From Escherichia phage VTCCBPA_211: a stretch of 64,000 bases of DNA. Below are positions 1 to 39,728 of the stretch, one piece after another (positions within the stretch are counted from its first letter, which is position 1; every line of letters starts with the position of its first letter). Both the position numbers and the translations under genes were made by a program. The notes under the pieces are model-generated. The model was given only the letters and a program-made list of their open reading frames with translations, did no database searches and had not been told where the DNA came from. The stretch lies in sequence record PP989838.1. The stretch is one strand, 5' to 3'.

Positions 1-243
1 GCGCTCGCCGCGTGTTTCTCAAAAAGGGGGAGTCCTCATTTAAAAAAAGGGTTATTGGCAATGCCTTTACCTTCCCTTTCAACGTTCCACCTTTCCCCGT
101 GCCTACTCCCCGTAATTATTCCCCCGTGTATACTACCCAATACATTACCTACCCGTTTATTTAGTTCCCCTTTACTGAGTGAGAGAAAGGCCAGCACTGT
201 ACAGGCCAACTGATTAGTCTGCTAATAATGCCATTAATGATGG

Positions 244-1413: not shown

Positions 1414-1665
1414 ATGAGTAACGAAGCGATTAAATTATCCAGCGGTGTTTCTTGTTTTGTGTGTGATACTTTTATCTCGTTCGGCTTGGAAGAAGGTTGC
1501 GTTATAATCCCTACCGTTGCCTTTTGTTCCATGAGTTTTAGCGAGGCTAAAAGATGGCTCCAATTGGTGCGCATTGATATAAATCGCGATGACTTCCGTT
1601 CAATTTACAATGACGGTGGTTTGTCGCTTGCTGGTCTTCTGGATTGTGATTTGCCAAAATGGTGA
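1414..1665 (+). CDS. hypothetical protein (83 aa)
   Basis: RBS CAGGAG 9 nt upstream; tight spacing after previous gene; track ORF. Confidence 0.6.
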   Translation: MSNEAIKLSSGVSCFVCDTFISFGLEEGCVIIPTVAFCSMSFSEAKRWLQLVRIDINRDDFRSIYNDGGLSLAGLLDCDLPKW

Positions 1666-2050: not shown

Positions 2051-2079
2051 AAGCGCCGCTATGGCGCTTTTCTGTTTTC
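2051..2079 (+). terminator. rho-independent terminator
   Basis: AAGCGCC-GCTAT-GGCGCTT (7-bp stem) followed by TTCTGTTTTC. Confidence 0.7.
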
Positions 2080-2252
2080 TAAGGTGATTGTATTCCTTAC
2101 TCCCTTTTAGTTCGCTGTAGTGCGTTTTAGGCCGTTAAATATCGATTTACAAGCCGTTTCCTATGATGTACCGCGTGCGTGCGCTCTTTTACTCTCCCAC
2201 TATGAAAAAAGTTTAAAATATTTTGCTTTACCCTATTGCATCCCTCACTGAT

Positions 2253-2261
2253 TAATGTATA
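2253..2261 (+). promoter_or_regulatory. TAATGTATA element (putative phage-sigma promoter -10-like element)
   Basis: Exact 9-mer; one of five exact copies, all intergenic; followed by hairpin + boxA. Confidence 0.5.
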
Positions 2262-2295
2262 CTTCATTTCATCGGGTACGATGTAAAACATACAA

Positions 2296-2322
2296 GGCAA
2301 GAAATTGCCCCGCTCTTTAAAA
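2296..2322 (+). promoter_or_regulatory. boxB-like hairpin + boxA antitermination element (unit 0)
   Basis: GGCAA-GAAA-TTGCC directly followed by CCGCTCTTTAAAAA. Confidence 0.6.
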
Positions 2323-2359
2323 ATCAGGCTAGAAAGTGAAAATATTCTTAAAAAGAGTA

Positions 2360-2388
2360 TTGACACCAGAAAAAGCCTGATACATAAT
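2360..2388 (+). promoter_or_regulatory. strong sigma70 early promoter P1
   Basis: TTGACA-17 nt-CATAAT; A-rich UP-like tract upstream; start region CATAATTAGCACAC shared with P3. Confidence 0.75.
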
Positions 2389-2396
2389 TAGCACAC

Positions 2397-2432
2397 AGTC
2401 AGCGATGACTTGAAAAATCCCGCTCTTTAAAA
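2397..2432 (+). promoter_or_regulatory. boxB-like hairpin + boxA (unit 1)
   Basis: AGTCA-GCGA-TGACT hairpin, then CCGCTCTTTAAAAA at 2420. Confidence 0.6.
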
Positions 2433-2509
2433 ACTTATCATCTTGCCCTTTCGCACAGAATCACGCGAGAAAGAGGGATAGAAAAGAAAAGAAGATGATA
2501 AAAAAGAGA

Positions 2510-2538
2510 TTGCAAACGTGGTTAAAGTAGTTCATACT
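2510..2538 (+). promoter_or_regulatory. sigma70 early promoter P2
   Basis: TTGCAA-17 nt-CATACT; A-rich upstream tract (AAAAAGAGA) as in P1. Confidence 0.7.
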
Positions 2539-2652
2539 AACCACAAGTTAGCAAAACATCGCTAACTAGTTCCCAAATCAACGTATCGCGGGAAAGGTGG
2601 CACATAGTGCAGCGAGTAGTTCGGGATTAGGCGCCCCGTTAATGAATAAGTA

Positions 2653-2712
2653 AGCCTTTAATGATGCAGTGATTAGCAGACACTATAAAAGGCTAAAAAC
2701 GCTCTTTAACAA
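2653..2712 (+). promoter_or_regulatory. hairpin + consensus boxA (unit 2)
   Basis: AGCCTTT..AAAGGCT stem, then CGCTCTTTAACAA at 2700-2712 (rrn boxA is TGCTCTTTAACAA). Confidence 0.65.
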
Positions 2713-2814
2713 AATGAATCATGAGTTAAGCCTTATCGCTTAATCTTCAACCCAACAAAGCGGGTTGATATATCCTCCCAATAGAGGGAACGACGAAAAA
2801 GATTAAAAAAGTGG

Positions 2815-2843
2815 TTGACGGCGAAAACATCATGGTCCATAAT
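2815..2843 (+). promoter_or_regulatory. strong sigma70 early promoter P3
   Basis: TTGACG-17 nt-CATAAT; A-rich UP-like tract; CATAATGAGCACAC start region. Confidence 0.75.
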
Positions 2844-2904
2844 GAGCACACTCAAGCAAAACACCGCTTCAGTGAAAAGCGAAACAACGGCTTACAGTTG
2901 CGTA

Positions 2905-2944
2905 GTGTGAGAAAGCACACTGACAGATTTACCGCTCTTTAATA
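2905..2944 (+). promoter_or_regulatory. boxB-like hairpin + boxA (unit 3)
   Basis: GTGTG-AGAAAG-CACAC hairpin, then CCGCTCTTTAATAA at 2932. Confidence 0.6.
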
Positions 2945-3752
2945 ATTTAAACATTCTCCTATATCGGTTGCATATGCTGGAAGATAATAACCATCGGAAA
3001 GCATACCAGATAAAACGGTGTAAGGCCCCTAAACTATCAGGGTAAACAGTCTTACAATCCCTTAACTGGAAACGTCACCACTGTTAAACGGATTCATTGA
3101 GTACACGCAACGGCTTAAACTAATCGCCCACGGTTAAAGGGTAGCGGCGGCCATCGCTAACAAGGTGCTACAATGAAAGAAGTTTATCAGGGTAGGCAAG
3201 TCCGACAAATTAACGCCCAATTGAGGGCGGCGGGGGATGGTTAAAAAGTGGCAAATTGCTATTTAACAATAAGGTTTAATGCGAACGTTTACGATGTGAA
3301 CGGCTTGAGATTCGTCTTATGACGGAAGTACATAGTCGGGTTATGTAGTAAACCCGCCGAAAGATATAAAACGCCGGAATATTAGGCGGTCAATGATCTC
3401 TTTCCGCAATAACCTCCCGTAGTGGGCGATGGTTAGCGGTTAGGAGTTGGCACAAAGGATAAGCGGGAGCGAAAACAAAGTAGACGATATTGCCGACGGT
3501 TACAGCAATGTAATTAAATAGAGTCGGACGCATAGCCTTATTGTGATGATTGATCATCGCTATCAGGTCGGCTTCGTTTATAGCGACTAATTAAAGATAC
3601 CAGATGAAACATCACGGATAAGGGGGCGGCAAGGTTAACTCCTGATAAGACCGCCCCGCTTATCAATAATTACTTAACAATGAGTGGTTATCGATAAGTC
3701 AACAGTGACTTAAAAAGCTCATAGAGAGCGGGGCATAGTGCCCTTACAATTG
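2945..3752 (+). other. ~0.8 kb ORF-free transcribed leader / candidate structured non-coding RNA
   Basis: No ORF above 23 codons with an RBS; GC-richer than flanks; many hairpins and short repeats (TATCAGGGTA x2, AACGGCTT x3, GATAAG x5); downstream of 4 promoters with boxA. Confidence 0.3.
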
Positions 3753-3765
3753 AAAGGTGAATATC

Positions 3766-4665
3766 ATGGCTAAAATCTTTACTCTGGTTAACGAATCTGG
3801 TTTTAATGCTCTGGCTAACAATATCCGTAGCAATAATGCAGCGATCAAACAGGATGTTTCTAATTTTCTGTTAGGGCACTTACAGCACTTCCGTAGCAAC
3901 GGTAAAAAGTTAGACGTATTGCAGTCGGCGGTTGATTTTCTGTTAACCGAACGTTTCCGCGATATGGATGTTATTGCTACCGCAATCACTTTCTTAACTC
4001 CTATCAAGTTTAACACTGATGCGGCGAATGGTCGTAAGAAGTGGATTAATCTGGAAGGTGAAGCGAAAGCGAAAGAAGATGCGAAAGAAGCGCAAATTAA
4101 AACCAAAATGGAGCAAAACCGCGCTCGCTGGTCAAACGCTTTCGAAAACTTCGCGTTAGGTCGTGAAATTGAAGTCGATAACCCTAACTTCTTCAAAGGT
4201 TGCAATGACAACGTAGCGGCACACCTGCAAATTCCGGCAAAGAATAAAGAAGACTTTAACCAAGATATTTACGCTTTGGTTGAACGCTTGAATGCAATCC
4301 GTATTGAAGCCAAATTACTGGCTGATGAGCGCAACGGCGCAACCAGTGATAATACTATCGCCTTAAGTGAAGAAGTGGGCAAGGTTAAAAAGTCCTTTGA
4401 TTCACTCATCAAGAAAGTCACGGCATCGACGGTAGCGATCTCAGATGATTATCTGATGAACGCATCAAGCAAGGAGCTGGAATCACTCGATTCATACGCT
4501 GATGAAATGGAAAAGACTGTTGCAGCTATGCAGGAGAAGTTAGAAAGTCTGCGCGGTCGTATCTCTTCAACGGTTGCTACCCGTACCGAACAAGCTGCGA
4601 AAGAAGAAGAGGAAGAAGTATTGCGTAAAGCTGCTGAAATTATGGCGGCACGTCAGGCGGCATAA
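3766..4665 (+). CDS. hypothetical early protein (299 aa), C-terminal acidic coiled coil
   Basis: ATG 8 nt after AAAGG; first ORF after the boxA leader; strong terminator follows. Confidence 0.75.
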   Translation: MAKIFTLVNESGFNALANNIRSNNAAIKQDVSNFLLGHLQHFRSNGKKLDVLQSAVDFLLTERFRDMDVIATAITFLTPIKFNTDAANGRKKWINLEGEAKAKEDAKEAQIKTKMEQNRARWSNAFENFALGREIEVDNPNFFKGCNDNVAAHLQIPAKNKEDFNQDIYALVERLNAIRIEAKLLADERNGATSDNTIALSEEVGKVKKSFDSLIKKVTASTVAISDDYLMNASSKELESLDSYADEMEKTVAAMQEKLESLRGRISSTVATRTEQAAKEEEEEVLRKAAEIMAARQAA

Positions 4666-4687: not shown

Positions 4688-4722
4688 AAGGCGCTATCTT
4701 AACGGGTAGCGCCTTTTCTTTA
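4688..4722 (+). terminator. rho-independent terminator
   Basis: AAGGCGCTA-10 nt loop-TAGCGCCTT (9-bp stem) followed by TTCTTTAT. Confidence 0.75.
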
Positions 4723-6013: not shown

Positions 6014-6036
6014 AGCCGCCTTTGAGCGGCTTTTTG
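6014..6036 (+). terminator. rho-independent terminator
   Basis: AGCCGC-CTTTGA-GCGGCT followed by TTTTT. Confidence 0.65.
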
Positions 6037-6098: not shown

Positions 6099-6126
6099 GC
6101 CCCGGCTACGGCTGGGGCTTTTTTAT
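6099..6126 (+). terminator. rho-independent terminator (UACG tetraloop)
   Basis: GCCCCGGC-TACG-GCTGGGGC (8 bp, one G-U) followed by TTTTTTA. Confidence 0.8.
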
Positions 6127-7768: not shown

Positions 7769-7777
7769 CATCGACTT

Positions 7778-7810
7778 ATAGCCCTTGTGTTTATCAGAGG
7801 GCTATGTGAG
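7778..7810 (+). repeat. conserved intergenic hairpin + GGGCTATGTGAG, copy A
   Basis: ATAGCCCT-12 nt-AGGGCTAT then GTGAG; homologous element at 12041-12067; no U-tract. Confidence 0.5.
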
Positions 7811-8126
7811 GGTGTTCCTCATTAACTTATTAATTCAGGCATATGCCACACCGCTAGGGAGAGCTTGCTCGAACATCCGGTGTTAGACTAAAACCTGTTA
7901 ATTTTCGAAAGACTTTCTGATATGTAGGGGTACATATTGGTTTGGGATTCAGGAGACTTCCTAGGGGTAGGGAGTCTTCACCAGTTGGGATAAGAGATAG
8001 CTCTAGAACCTGAACTCTTAGGCAGAGAAGGTCGGCAATGAGTACGCGGTCAGAATTAGTCTACTGACTAGGGCTATCCCTTATATCAACTGGCAATAAT
8101 GCCTCCACTAACAAAGAGAGATAGAT

Positions 8127-8267
8127 ATGAAAGTATCAACCAAACGTATGAACCGCCCTGAACGTATGGATGCAGTAGCTAATGGTGCTCTGAAACTGGA
8201 AGGCTTCTGGATTCATGCGATGTCAGCCATCCGTAACAAGCAAGGCAATTGGACCTATGGTAACTAA
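8127..8267 (+). CDS. hypothetical small protein (46 aa)
   Basis: Hand translation MKVSTKRMNRPERMDAVANGALKLEGFWIHAMSAIRNKQGNWTYGN; GAGAG upstream. Confidence 0.4.
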   Translation: MKVSTKRMNRPERMDAVANGALKLEGFWIHAMSAIRNKQGNWTYGN

Positions 8268-9379: not shown

Positions 9380-9456
9380 GCGCCCTTAGTTCAATTGGAC
9401 AGAACATCGGATTTCTAATCCGTCGGTTACAGGTTCGAATCCTGTAGGGTGCGCCA
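9380..9456 (+). tRNA. tRNA-Arg (anticodon UCU, reads AGA), CCA encoded
   Basis: Manual cloverleaf: acceptor GCGCCCT/AGGGTGC, D arm GTTC/GAAC, anticodon loop TTTCTAA, T arm ACAGG-TTCGAAT-CCTGT, 3' GCCA. Confidence 0.9.
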
Positions 9457-39312: not shown

Positions 39313-39413
39313 CTTATATCCTTTACTTTTTAGCTTTCTTAGGAATAATCTTTTTATCTATTATTCTTGAATTTGGTTTAAGTAAGTTAGTTAATTATTT
39401 AGGTAATAAGTAA
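39306..39413 (+). CDS. micro-ORF, single-TM peptide (35 aa)
   Basis: ATGGTAA start/stop overlap; MVTYILYFLAFLGIIFLSIILEFGLSKLVNYLGNK. Confidence 0.35.
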   Translation: MVTYILYFLAFLGIIFLSIILEFGLSKLVNYLGNK

Positions 39414-39588
39414 TTATTATTCTTTTAAATAGAGAATCAAAGTCCCTAGGAGTCCCTACAACCTAAATCAAGGATTCCTTAATTCTCTATTTTTATCTCG
39501 CAGGTGGCTCCTGCCCTTCGGTACTTGCAAGGGATTCTGTGAATTGCCCAATATACAAGCCTGCAATAACTTTATCAGCTATACAATA

Positions 39589-39597
39589 TATACATTA
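39589..39597 (-). promoter_or_regulatory. TAATGTATA element on the minus strand (antisense-facing putative phage promoter)
   Basis: Exact 9-mer (TATACATTA on plus); inverted relative to the 39661 copy 64 bp away; no minus-strand gene downstream. Confidence 0.4.
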
Positions 39598-39660
39598 CTA
39601 GTGTGATATATCTACTACCAAAGATACTTATATTATATAGTACTCTTATCGGTATAAGCG

Positions 39661-39669
39661 TAATGTATA
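39661..39669 (+). promoter_or_regulatory. TAATGTATA element (putative phage-sigma promoter) upstream of the SSB operon
   Basis: Exact 9-mer, 60 nt upstream of the 39729 start. Confidence 0.6.
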
Positions 39670-39728
39670 CTATACATAACCGCTCAAAGAGAGCAACAAT
39701 CTTTCAAATTAAATAAGGAAATTAAAAT

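What the first reader, a model, noticed from the sequence alone, without database searches (positions are those of the whole stretch)
2945..3756. A 0.8-kb ORF-free, GC-enriched, hairpin-rich leader downstream of the boxA promoters may be a long non-coding RNA
In a genome where genes otherwise abut or overlap, about 1.7 kb (2080-3756) lacks any convincing ORF. The longest RBS-preceded ORF in 2945-3756 is 23 codons, starting at 3172.

The last 0.8 kb is visibly GC-richer than its flanks and contains many stable hairpins. Examples are CGGGTT-8-AACCCG, CGCCC-6-GGGCG, GGGGCGG-22-CCGCCCC and CTTATC..GATAAG. It also contains short direct repeats: TATCAGGGTA(A/G)(A/G)CA(G/A)GTC twice, AACGGCTT three times, and GATAAG five times.

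rrn-type boxA antitermination is the mechanism cells use to protect untranslated RNA from Rho. That fits this stretch being transcribed at a high level as RNA with its own function, such as a decoy, scaffold, processing substrate or regulator of the first early protein at 3766. I could not match it to any RNA family from memory.
Basis: inference. Interest (0 to 1): 0.6.

Follow-up and report, generated by a model that had tools for sequence, protein, structure and literature searches.

The report
Large structured RNA in phage leader
The gene-free 0.8 kb at the start of this coliphage's main early transcript encodes a large, intricately folded RNA that is kept in all 97 related phage genome records found, matches no known RNA family, and sits behind ribosomal-RNA-style antitermination signals.

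Summary
The window is a Kuravirus (phiEco32-like) coliphage genome. The ORF-free stretch is real. 2367-3743 is the longest run without a 60-codon ORF on either strand (1377 nt; next longest 461).

All 97 related phage records keep the 812-nt segment at full length. It is far better conserved (mean pairwise identity 0.84) than wobble positions of the adjacent gene (0.66). It shows no codon periodicity and no conserved ORF.

The consensus fold has 220 base pairs in 39 helices, and 76 pairs show compensatory double changes. 99.2% of cells are paired. G.U cells outnumber A.C cells 789 to 20, so the fold belongs to + strand RNA. The adjacent CDS in the same genomes gives only 5 compensatory pairs. 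No Rfam family, E. coli sequence or paper matches it.

Upstream lie tandem near-consensus sigma-70 promoters and 3-5 rrn-type boxA copies. The last boxA is 16/16 identical to rrn boxA plus spacer in 18 of 32 sequences.

Best reading: a new large structured RNA made early by boxA/Nus-modified host RNA polymerase. Whether it acts in trans (RNP or decoy) or as a cis-acting leader is unresolved. The claimed GC enrichment and short repeats do not exceed background.

The parts
2051..2069 (+). Intrinsic terminator that closes the upstream small-gene operon and marks the start of the spacer.
   Evidence: 8-bp stem with 5 G-C pairs followed by a T-run. Terminators are annotated at the equivalent place in SU10, SU7 and 4E8.
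2236..2322 (+). Promoter-boxA module 1. It contains TTGCAT-16-TATACT (2236-2263), hairpin GGCAAgaaaTTGCC (2296-2309) and boxA CGCTCTTTAAAA (2311-2322).
   Evidence: Sequence reading. This part of the spacer is mosaic among relatives.
2360..2432 (+). Promoter-boxA module 2. It contains TTGACA-17-CATAAT (11/12 match), hairpin AGTCAgcgaTGACT (2397-2410) and boxA at 2421.
   Evidence: Its upstream/-35 sequence AAAAAGAGTATTGAC is identical over 15 nt to the T7 A1 promoter region (PMC11863960 Table 1).
2510..2711 (+). Promoter-boxA module 3. It contains TTGCAA-17-CATACT (2510-2538) and boxA CGCTCTTTAACAA (2700-2712). The block conserved in all relatives starts at about 2697.
2815..2944 (+). Promoter-boxA module 4, positionally conserved in every relative examined. 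It contains TTGACG-17-CATAAT (2815-2843), hairpin 2885-2900, boxB-like hairpin AGTGTGagaaagCACACT (2904-2921) and boxA at 2933-2944.
   Evidence: The last promoter lies 941-956 nt before the ATG and the last boxA 826-835 nt before it in all 16 genomes. The boxB-like stem has five compensatory versions.
2946..3245 (+). RNA domain I. It is closed by the long-range helix 2946-2958/3233-3245, which starts 2 nt after boxA. It contains hairpin 2973-3005, sub-domain 3006-3069, a long arm 3074-3197 and hairpin 3215-3228.
   Evidence: Helices 2-15 of the consensus fold. 26 pairs show compensatory double changes.
3246..3269 (+). Inter-domain hairpin AAGUGGCAaauUGCUAUUU. It carries an invariant boxA-like word, UUGCUAUUUAACAA, which differs from rrn boxA at one position.
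   Evidence: (helix 16). Whether it binds NusB/E is unknown.
3266..3544 (+). RNA domain II. It is closed by a 10-bp helix 3266-3275/3535-3544 plus 3279-3283/3529-3533. It contains helix 3286-3292/3480-3486, hairpin 3301-3338, sub-domain 3353-3467 and arm 3493-3527.
   Evidence: Helices 17-30. 36 pairs show compensatory double changes, including all 6 pairs of 3353-3358/3462-3467.
3545..3744 (+). 3' array of eight hairpins: 3545-3558, 3566-3588 (enclosed by an extra 3-bp helix), 3603-3613, 3623-3657, 3664-3693, 3695-3712, 3717-3729 and 3730-3744. The last two have similar AUAGA and AUAGU loops.
   Evidence: Helices 31-39. The extra helix at alignment columns 648-650/686-688 has three compensatory versions.
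3628..3651 (+). Almost invariant apical element GCAAGGUUAACUCCUGAUAAGAC inside hairpin 3623-3657. It is a candidate binding site.
   Evidence: The stem below it exists in three compensatory versions.
3754..3768 (+). Shine-Dalgarno sequence AAGGUG and the ATG of the first gene. They are unpaired in the consensus fold apart from a weak, invariant and therefore unsupported 4-bp pairing with boxA.
   Evidence: helix 1 never shows a compensatory change.
3766..4665 (+). First gene of the early unit. It encodes a 299-aa protein of unknown function (phrog_13018) that is found in the same 97 phage records as the RNA.
   Evidence: It has reassorted with the RNA by recombination.
4688..4715 (+). Strong intrinsic terminator directly after the first gene. 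The promoters, RNA, ORF and terminator therefore form one module.
   Evidence: 12-bp stem plus a T-run. Terminators are annotated at the same place in 4E8 and SU7.

Best explanation
SHOWN. The + strand of 2946-3744 encodes an RNA of about 0.8 kb with an elaborate, evolutionarily maintained fold. The fold has two closed multi-helix domains (2946-3245 and 3266-3544) followed by an array of eight hairpins. The RNA is present at constant length in every phiEco32-like (Gordonclarkvirinae) coliphage examined. It is not protein-coding and belongs to no described RNA family.

SHOWN AT SEQUENCE LEVEL. It lies directly downstream of tandem near-consensus sigma-70 promoters and 3-5 copies of an rrn-type boxA. 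In the window each of the four promoters has its own boxA, and three of the four (1, 2 and 4) are preceded by a hairpin (rrn order, boxB then boxA).

INFERRED MECHANISM.
- At the start of infection, host RNA polymerase fires from these promoters.
- NusB/NusE and the other Nus factors assemble on boxA, as they do on rRNA operons.
- The modified polymerase is fast and Rho-resistant, so it can complete this long untranslated RNA.
- Because boxA stays clamped at the RNA exit, the 5' strand of the domain-I closing helix, which begins 2 nt after boxA, is handed to its partner about 275 nt later. The rrn complex delivers the rRNA leader strand in the same way.

INFERRED, LEAST CERTAIN. The folded RNA is itself the product. 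It would be an abundant immediate-early RNA that binds host or phage factors (RNP scaffold or decoy used in host take-over or counter-defence), possibly after being cut from the mRNA. It would be more than a passive leader. The reason is that its unpaired nucleotides are as conserved as its helices and its complexity far exceeds that of known stabilising or translational leaders.

MY CONFIDENCE BY LAYER.
- Selected RNA structure on the + strand: 0.95.
- New RNA family: 0.85.
- boxA/Nus-coupled synthesis: 0.7.
- Function of its own beyond cis control: about 0.55.
For: Identity and distribution. The window is a Kuravirus genome. 97 of 97 matching phage records carry the 812-nt segment at full length, at 74-97% identity. 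In 32 distinct sequences the boxA-to-ATG distance is 836-847 nt.

Selection without coding.
- Mean pairwise identity is 0.84, against 0.66 at wobble positions of the adjacent gene.
- Three-base phase contrast is at most 0.14, against 0.20-0.37 in the gene.
- No ORF is conserved. The 23-codon ORF has lost its start in four divergent phages (the NC-B/TH42 group) and is cut short in one metagenome sequence.

Structure.
- The consensus fold has 220 pairs in 39 helices at -227 kcal/mol. The reverse-complement alignment reaches only -131.
- 76 pairs carry double compensatory changes, and 99.2% of 7038 cells are paired.
- 0 of 500 shuffles reach this, and slid structures give 6-11 such pairs and 35-48% pairing.
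- A control with the same genomes, length and divergence, the adjacent CDS, gives -70 kcal/mol and 5 compensatory pairs.
- An energy-free test agrees. The top 7 of 37,898 column pairs by APC-corrected mutual information are all predicted pairs.
- There are 789 G.U cells against 20 A.C cells.
- z = -6.8 for the single sequence.
- Unpaired columns vary as little as paired ones (0.086 versus 0.093), with invariant single-stranded runs of 9-13 nt.

Not a known family.
- No credible Rfam 15 match at E up to 10 in the window or four divergent homologs.
- No match in 5,426 E. coli genomes.
- No annotation in phiEco32 or other records.
- No paper found.

Transcription signals.
- Four exact boxA cores lie within 630 nt on one strand.
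- Each follows a promoter.
- 3-5 boxA copies are present in all 16 genomes scanned.
- The form CCGCUCUUUAACAAUUUA, found in 18 of the 32 sequences, is 16/16 identical to the rrn boxA-spacer ugcucuuuaacaauuua (PMC2724277). The window's own copy has U for C at one position (15/16).
- The boxB-like hairpin before boxA 4 covaries.

Established knowledge.
- Rho terminates untranslated RNA, and boxA protects long untranslated transcripts (PMC7665894).
- phiEco32 early genes are transcribed by sigma-70 holoenzyme (PMC12276001).
Against: No expression, end-mapping or stability data for this region could be found or generated. Promoter activity, RNA abundance and any processing are therefore predictions.

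The RNA is physically the 5' leader of an mRNA. No terminator separates it from the ORF at 3766, so a purely cis-acting role is not excluded.

All homologs come from one phage subfamily (at least 74% identity) with a mosaic, recombining history. Many compensatory cells are therefore inherited, not independent events.

There is no GU-rich boxC after boxA, and NusB/E binding is untested.

No partner protein is identified. The adjacent protein is of unknown function, and its structure model was unusable.

No complementarity to other phage transcripts beyond chance was found.
Confidence: 0.55

Rival explanations
1. It is a cis-acting leader only. The folded 5' region serves the downstream mRNA. 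It could protect the mRNA from 5'-end-dependent RNase E decay, provide RNase III or RNase E processing sites (as the R0.3 site does in T7 early RNA), or tune translation of the first gene, for instance through the twin AUAG-loop hairpins just before the ribosome-binding site.
For: The RNA is contiguous with the ORF, with no terminator in between. The promoters, RNA, ORF and terminator form one module. T7 has the same layout of tandem promoters, then boxA, then a processing hairpin, then the first gene (PMC11863960 Table 1, and my knowledge of T7). Two conserved hairpins lie 10-40 nt before the Shine-Dalgarno sequence.
Against: About 40 helices, closed domains with long-range pairings, and invariant single-stranded runs over 800 nt are far more than any known stabiliser or translational operator needs. 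The Shine-Dalgarno sequence and ATG are not sequestered by any supported helix. The RNA and the downstream gene have been reassorted by recombination without loss of either.
Confidence: 0.25
2. It is a cis-acting processive antitermination RNA, like HK022 put or B. subtilis EAR but much larger. Together with boxA/Nus factors it would make RNA polymerase resistant to the strong intrinsic terminators inside the long early unit.
For: Strong + strand intrinsic terminators at 4688-4715, 6014-6031 and 6099-6118 lie downstream, and no good sigma-70 promoter lies between the first terminator and the next gene. rrn-type complexes are poor at intrinsic terminators (my knowledge). The need for an undefined antitermination strategy in this phage group has been noted for phage 7-11 (PMC8948821).
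Against: Known RNA antiterminators are 70-120 nt. There is no Rfam match to them. Phage 7-11, for which the need was noted, lacks the element and lacks boxA.
Confidence: 0.1
3. It has a role in replication. The transcript would form a persistent R-loop or primer at an origin, as ColE1 RNA II does. Alternatively, the displaced + strand DNA would fold into a priming signal.
For: The region is G-rich over C (GC skew +0.115), strongly transcribed according to the promoter predictions, and the origin of these phages is unknown. Covariation cannot by itself tell + strand RNA from + strand single-stranded DNA.
Against: The same G over C skew is seen in the flanking genes. An 800-nt two-domain fold with 11% G.U pairs is unlike known primer RNAs or single-strand initiation signals. 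No DnaA-box or iteron pattern was seen on reading the sequence.
Confidence: 0.05
4. It contains hidden coding sequence, that is, one or more micropeptides such as the 23-codon ORF at 3172.
For: The 23-codon ORF has a plausible ribosome-binding site and is intact in 27 of 32 sequences.
Against: Its start codon varies between ATG, GTG and ATA, and is lost in four divergent phages (the NC-B/TH42 group). No wobble-position periodicity is seen. Substitutions inside the ORF are the compensatory pairs of helices. The larger ORFs in Bas88 and TH43 are lineage-specific.
Confidence: 0.02
5. It is a neutral spacer whose hairpins are chance events.
For: The GC content and the short repeats are unremarkable.
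Against: Conservation is far above the synonymous rate. Length is held within 11 nt. z = -6.8. There are 76 compensatory pairs against 5 in the CDS control.
Confidence: 0.01

Closest known systems
E. coli rRNA operon leader (tandem P1/P2 promoters, boxB-boxA-boxC, rrn antitermination complex)
   Same: Both have tandem strong sigma-70 promoters with A-rich upstream regions. Both have a hairpin followed by boxA in the rrn order. The boxA plus spacer is identical over 16 nt in 18 of 32 homologs. In both, a long untranslated, highly structured RNA follows immediately, and a long-range helix strand sits right after boxA. A second boxA-like word lies between the two RNA domains, much as rrn has a second boxA in the 16S-23S spacer.
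   Different: The RNA has no similarity to rRNA. There is no GU-rich boxC. The promoter-boxA module is repeated 3-5 times. A protein gene follows in the same transcript. Nus-factor dependence is untested.
Phage T7 early control region (promoters A1-A3, boxA, RNase III site R0.3, gene 0.3)
   Same: Both have tandem host-polymerase promoters at the early end of a lytic podovirus genome. T7 has CGCTCTTTAACAA downstream of them and a structured untranslated segment before the first gene. P2 shares a 15-nt upstream/-35 sequence with A1 (PMC11863960 Table 1).
   Different: In T7, boxA is followed by about 90 nt carrying a single processing hairpin. Here it is followed by an 800-nt two-domain fold. 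Each promoter here has its own boxA.
Large structured non-coding RNAs of bacteria and phages (GOLLD, ROOL, OLE, HEARO)
   Same: Size (0.6-0.8 kb), many helices with multi-way junctions, strong covariation, conserved unpaired nucleotides, unknown biochemical function and (for GOLLD and ROOL) association with phages are all shared.
   Different: There is no covariance-model match to any of them. This RNA lies in a virulent coliphage, at a fixed promoter-proximal place in an mRNA leader, and has boxA signals. It is not next to tRNA genes; the only tRNA is 5.6 kb away.
boxA-protected CRISPR array transcripts
   Same: In both, a long untranslated RNA is shielded from Rho by a boxA placed just upstream (PMC7665894).
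   Different: This is not a repeat-spacer array. The RNA here is a single complex fold.
HK022 put RNA and B. subtilis EAR (RNA-based processive antiterminators)
   Same: All are promoter-proximal structured RNAs in the leader of a long operon that contains terminators.
   Different: The known ones are 70-120 nt and act without boxA. There is no model match.
ColE1 RNA II (replication primer)
   Same: Both are untranslated, structured RNAs several hundred nt long whose fold is selected.
   Different: There is no evidence of an origin here. This RNA is much more complex and is followed by a translated gene.

Membership tests
rrn-type boxA antitermination site | RNA-strand match to the NusB/NusE site GCUCUUUAACAA | tested here: met
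   Four exact GCTCTTTAA cores lie on the + strand. In 18 of 32 homologs boxA 4 plus spacer is 16/16 identical to rrn ugcucuuuaacaauuua; the window's own copy is 15/16 (PMC2724277).
rrn-type boxA antitermination site | Located in the transcribed leader just downstream of a promoter | tested here: met
   Each boxA lies 48-162 nt after the end of a -10 hexamer of a sigma-70-like promoter. The promoters are predicted, not mapped.
rrn-type boxA antitermination site | boxB-like hairpin 5' of boxA (the rrn order) | tested here: met
   Hairpins end 1-12 nt before boxA 1, 2 and 4. The one before boxA 4 has five compensatory versions. No clear hairpin precedes boxA 3.
rrn-type boxA antitermination site | GU-rich boxC 3' of boxA | tested here: not met
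   The sequence after boxA 4 is AAUUUAAACAUUCUCC, which is not GU-rich. boxC is dispensable for complex formation according to PMC10250234.
rrn-type boxA antitermination site | NusB/E binding and Rho resistance | not testable with these tools
   This needs binding assays, nus mutant hosts or bicyclomycin.
Any described RNA family (Rfam 15, including GOLLD, ROOL, OLE, HEARO, group I/II introns, RNase P, tmRNA, 6S, put, EAR) | Covariance-model score at or near the family threshold | tested here: not met
   Only chance-level hits were found in 2690-3790 (at most 20.5 bits, against gathering scores of 34 or more, E above 1). No hit fell inside the RNA in four divergent homologs.
Structured non-coding RNA (general class) | Base pairs maintained by compensatory substitutions beyond controls | tested here: met
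   76 of 220 pairs are compensatory. Slid structures give 6-11, shuffles give 40, and the CDS control gives 5. The mutual-information ranking agrees.
Structured non-coding RNA (general class) | Strand-specific fold (G.U tolerated, A.C not) | tested here: met
   There are 789 G.U cells against 20 A.C cells. The consensus energy is -227 on the + strand against -131 on the reverse complement.
Structured non-coding RNA (general class) | Detected as a transcript | not testable with these tools
   No transcriptome of a Kuravirus was found in the paper library.
Protein-coding gene or micropeptide | Conserved reading frame with wobble-position variation | tested here: not met
T7-type early leader with RNase III site | Irregular double-stranded stem of about 20 bp between boxA and the first gene, cleaved by RNase III | tested here: inconclusive
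   The longest continuous stems are about 15 bp (3266-3283/3529-3544) and about 14 bp (3616-3629/3651-3663). Cleavage cannot be predicted reliably from sequence.

The most novel reading that the evidence does not exclude
A virulent coliphage carries a 'pseudo-rRNA operon'. Tandem rrn-like promoters and boxB/boxA modules would hijack the host's ribosomal-RNA antitermination and chaperone machinery. This machinery would mass-produce and fold a phage-specific two-domain RNA of about 0.8 kb. The RNA would then act in trans as an RNP or self-assembling particle, or as a decoy for host RNA-binding, ribosome-assembly or defence factors, during the first minutes of infection. That would make it a new class of large functional RNA in a genetically tractable E. 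coli system.
Probability: 0.3. Interest if true: 0.9.

Novelty: new variant of a known kind. Interest (0 to 1): 0.74.

Why it matters
Only about a dozen classes of large (over 400 nt), intricately folded non-coding RNAs are known in bacteria and their viruses. Most of them (OLE, GOLLD, ROOL) still lack a clear function, and they occur in organisms that are hard to manipulate.

This one sits in a common group of virulent E. coli phages. Members of the group are used in therapy studies, and several (Bas86-94) now grow on engineered E. coli K-12 (PMC11990801). Deletion, compensatory mutagenesis, pull-downs, structure probing and cryo-EM are therefore all immediately feasible.

The element would also be the clearest viral example of boxA/Nus antitermination used to make a large structured RNA. 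Known viral uses serve to read through into genes. It would thus give a compact model for the RNA-chaperone role of the rrn transcription complex.

The same phages are reported to be unusually resistant to known defence systems (PMC11990801). This makes an abundant immediate-early RNA a candidate worth testing as a counter-defence factor.

In practical terms, 97 genome records currently leave this region unannotated or place spurious small CDSs in it.

Tried and rejected
- **Metagenome scan.** The 16-nt conserved word was too short, and nearly all 120 stretches returned were chance matches. Only three (L018, L034, L097) were real, and all three are close relatives.
- **Other collection scans.** Scans of viral and genome collections with longer invariant words found only the known phages plus chance hits, including a red-deer Muribaculaceae MAG contig with no wider similarity.
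- **Search through the neighbouring protein.** The 299-aa protein was used to look for more distant carriers. It occurs in the same 97 records only.
- **Phage 7-11.** This Salmonella phage, a more distant relative with the same morphotype, has ORF-free gaps. It has no CGCTCTTTAA-type boxA cluster (two isolated partial matches only) and no profile match.
- **Host origin.** No match was found in E. coli genomes.
- **Antisense targets.** The window holds 19 complementary 11-mers against 12.5 expected, so this was rejected.
- **Short repeats as protein-binding sites.** GGUUA and GAUAAG are individually frequent, but not beyond the commonest word in shuffles.
- **CsrA-type GGA sponge.** By eye, the GGA count is about what composition predicts. 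This was not pursued.
- **The 299-aa protein.** Pfam, PHROGs and PDB sequence searches gave no function. The single-sequence AlphaFold model had pLDDT 49 and was not used.
- **Literature.** The two primary phiEco32 papers (Savalia 2008, Pavlova 2012) are not held in the library. I cannot rule out that they comment on this spacer.
Full report
**What the window is.** Nucleotide searches place the window in the phiEco32-like coliphages (genus Kuravirus, subfamily Gordonclarkvirinae). Its orientation is the reverse complement of the phiEco32 reference, so the window starts at the genome end that carries the early genes. The finding lies in the spacer between a small first operon and the first gene of the long early unit. 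The operon ends at about 2040 with a terminator at 2051-2069. The first gene has its ATG at 3766, encodes 299 aa, and is the homolog of phi32_124. The SU10 genome paper mentions three sigma-70 promoters in this spacer and nothing else (PMC4281155). Of the 60 records listed, most, phiEco32 included, annotate no feature across the 812 nt; a few place small hypothetical CDSs there.

**Checking the observation.**
- The ORF-free claim holds. 2367-3743 is the longest stretch of the 64-kb window without a 60-codon ORF on either strand (1377 nt), and the next longest is 461 nt.
- The region folds much better than chance. z = -6.8 for 2944-3765, against -0.3 for an equal length of the adjacent gene.
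- Four exact CGCTCTTTAA words lie on the + strand within 630 nt, each behind a sigma-70-type promoter.
- Two descriptive points fail. GC content (0.437) equals that of the next gene and barely exceeds the window mean. The short direct repeats are no more frequent than the commonest word of that length in dinucleotide shuffles.

**Conservation without coding.** All 97 phage records that match carry the 812-nt segment at full length, at 74-97% identity. In 32 distinct sequences (28 phage genome records, one uncultured viral genome and three metagenome contigs) the distance from the last boxA to the ATG is 836-847 nt. Mean pairwise identity is 0.84. Third codon positions of the adjacent gene in the same genomes give 0.66, and first and second positions give 0.89 and 0.93. 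The gene shows a three-base phase contrast of 0.20-0.37, and the spacer at most 0.14. No ORF is conserved. The 23-codon ORF at 3172 changes its start between ATG, GTG and ATA and is lost in four divergent phages (the NC-B/TH42 group). Longer ORFs in Bas88 and TH43 are lineage-specific.

**Structure.**
- On a sequence-only MAFFT alignment, RNAalifold predicts 220 pairs in 39 helices (-227 kcal/mol, covariation term -25). 76 pairs show a change on both sides with pairing kept.
- 99.2% of 7038 cells are standard pairs. No shuffle of 500 reaches the observed values. Sliding the 3' partners by 1-3 columns drops pairing to 35-48% and compensatory pairs to 6-11.
- As a control I applied the same procedure to the first 843 nt of the adjacent gene in the same genomes (mean column identity 0.89 against 0.91). 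It gave -70 kcal/mol and 5 compensatory pairs.
- An energy-free test agrees. Of 37,898 column pairs ranked by APC-corrected mutual information, the top seven are all predicted pairs. The ranking also revealed a further 3-bp helix with three compensatory versions.
- G.U cells outnumber A.C cells 789 to 20, and the reverse-complement alignment reaches only -131 kcal/mol. The fold therefore belongs to the + strand, the strand the promoters transcribe.
- Unpaired columns are as conserved as paired ones, with invariant single-stranded runs of 9-13 nt.

**Anatomy in window coordinates.**
- After the last promoter (2815-2843) come two hairpins. The second (2904-2921) covaries and sits 11 nt before boxA (2933-2944).
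- Two nucleotides after boxA begins the 5' strand of an 11-bp long-range helix, 2946-2958/3233-3245, which closes domain I. Domain I holds a hairpin with an almost invariant AUAAUAACC loop (two sequences have AUAAUGACC), a sub-domain at 3006-3069, a 26-bp interrupted arm at 3074-3197, and hairpin 3215-3228.
- Hairpin 3246-3264 carries an invariant word that differs from rrn boxA at one position.
- Domain II (3266-3544) is closed by a 10-bp helix and contains four further branches. One is 3353-3358/3462-3467, in which all six pairs covary.
- Eight hairpins follow (3545-3744). One of them has an almost invariant apical element, GCAAGGUUAACUCCUGAUAAGAC.
- The Shine-Dalgarno sequence and the ATG are left unpaired.

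**Transcription signals.** The 16 relatives scanned, each with sequence reaching 2.6 kb or more upstream of the gene, all have 3-5 boxA copies and strong sigma-70-type promoters. The last promoter and the last boxA sit at fixed distances from the gene, while the upstream modules are mosaic. In 18 of the 32 homologs the last boxA with its spacer reads CCGCUCUUUAACAAUUUA. That is identical over 16 nt to the rrn boxA-spacer oligonucleotide used in NusA binding studies (PMC2724277). The order of hairpin then boxA is the rrn order, not the lambda order (PMC8632103). T7 offers a viral precedent: its early leader has CGCTCTTTAACAA after promoters A1-A3 (PMC11863960 Table 1). P2 of this window also shares 15 nt with the A1 upstream/-35 region.

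**What it is not.**
- Rfam 15 gives only chance-level hits in the window and none inside the RNA in four divergent homologs.
- Nothing similar occurs in 5,426 complete E. coli genomes.
- Nothing similar was found in IMG/VR, in the species-representative genomes or in a metagenome scan beyond close relatives.
- Phage 7-11 lacks it.
- The paper library held no description of it. The two primary phiEco32 papers were not available.

**How it most likely works.**
- Shown: a selected, complex + strand RNA fold behind promoter-boxA modules.
- Inferred from established knowledge: Rho terminates untranslated RNA, and boxA-nucleated Nus complexes prevent this on rRNA and CRISPR transcripts (PMC7665894). 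The same complex holds the 5' nut-like element at the RNA exit and can deliver it to a distant complement (PMC8632103). The closing-helix strand sits 2 nt after boxA, which fits that chaperone logic.
- Because early transcription is by sigma-70 holoenzyme and is later shut off by gp79 (PMC12276001), the RNA would be made only in the first minutes of infection.
- I judge it more likely than not (about 0.55) that the RNA has a function of its own, such as an RNP, a decoy or a processed species. Its complexity and its conserved single-stranded nucleotides resemble those of RNPs and ribozymes more than those of stabilising leaders.
- The main rival (0.25) is a purely cis-acting leader. The RNA is contiguous with the first ORF, and the promoters, RNA, ORF and a strong terminator (4688-4715) form one module.
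- A put/EAR-like antiterminator role (0.1) is suggested by the intrinsic terminators downstream. A replication role is unlikely (0.05). Coding and chance are effectively excluded.

**Caveats.** All sequences come from one recombining phage subfamily, so compensatory cells are not independent events. The CDS control addresses this only in part. Promoters, abundance, transcript ends and Nus dependence are predictions.

**Novelty.** The transcription logic is a known kind (rrn/T7-type promoter-boxA leader, and boxA-protected untranslated RNA). The RNA fold is a new family with no detectable relatives. If it proves to act in trans it would count as a new class of large non-coding RNA.

Noticed in passing
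window 3256-3269: UUGCUAUUUAACAA is rrn boxA with one C-to-A change, at the position of the lambda boxA16 mutation. It is invariant in 32 homologs and lies between the two RNA domains, much as rrn has a second boxA in the 16S-23S spacer. However, it is predicted to be paired in a hairpin.
   Followed up: partly
window 4688-4715, 6014-6031, 6099-6118: Strong intrinsic terminators lie inside the early unit, and there is no good sigma-70 promoter between the first of them and the next gene (4776). Downstream early genes therefore seem to depend on terminator read-through.
   Followed up: no
window 2345-2374, compared with the T7 A1 promoter: The P2 upstream/-35 sequence AAAAAGAGTATTGAC is identical over 15 nt to the T7 A1 promoter region. 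The T7 leader also contains GGATAAG and CCTGATAAGTC words that resemble the conserved CCUGAUAAGAC of this RNA.
   Followed up: no
window 2944-3765: GGUUA occurs 8 times (1.3 expected), and three invariant copies read GGUUAA. The excess is suggestive only, because it is not significant after allowing for all words of that length.
   Followed up: partly
window 2945-4665, compared with loci L010, L011, L014 and L015: The RNA and the downstream gene have different histories. EK010, Bas88, TH43 and SU7 are 83-88% identical to the window in the RNA but only 74-76% in the gene. This indicates recombination near the RNA/gene boundary.
   Followed up: partly
window 7769-8214, 17493-17910, 39313-39728: These are the next-largest stretches without a 60-codon ORF on either strand (416-446 nt). 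They were not examined for RNA structure.
   Followed up: no
window 9380-9456: This is the only tRNA gene in the window, tRNA-Arg(UCU). It lies 5.6 kb downstream of the RNA and is not adjacent to it.
   Followed up: no
window 2080-2945 and the equivalent spacer in loci L008, L015, L150 and L152: Different records annotate mutually inconsistent small CDSs on either strand in the promoter part of the spacer. The window's 79-codon minus-strand ORF (2127-2366) overlaps promoters P1 and P2. These calls are probably spurious.
   Followed up: no
window 1414-1665 and loci L001, L011, L013: Small upstream early ORFs of 83-120 aa carry implausible names in some records, such as 'terminase', 'DNA polymerase B region' and 'polymerase'. 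These look like annotation artefacts.
   Followed up: no
window 1-206: According to the 4E8 annotation, this stretch corresponds to the direct terminal repeat of the phage genome. The early promoters and the RNA therefore lie 2.2-3.7 kb from a physical genome end.
   Followed up: no
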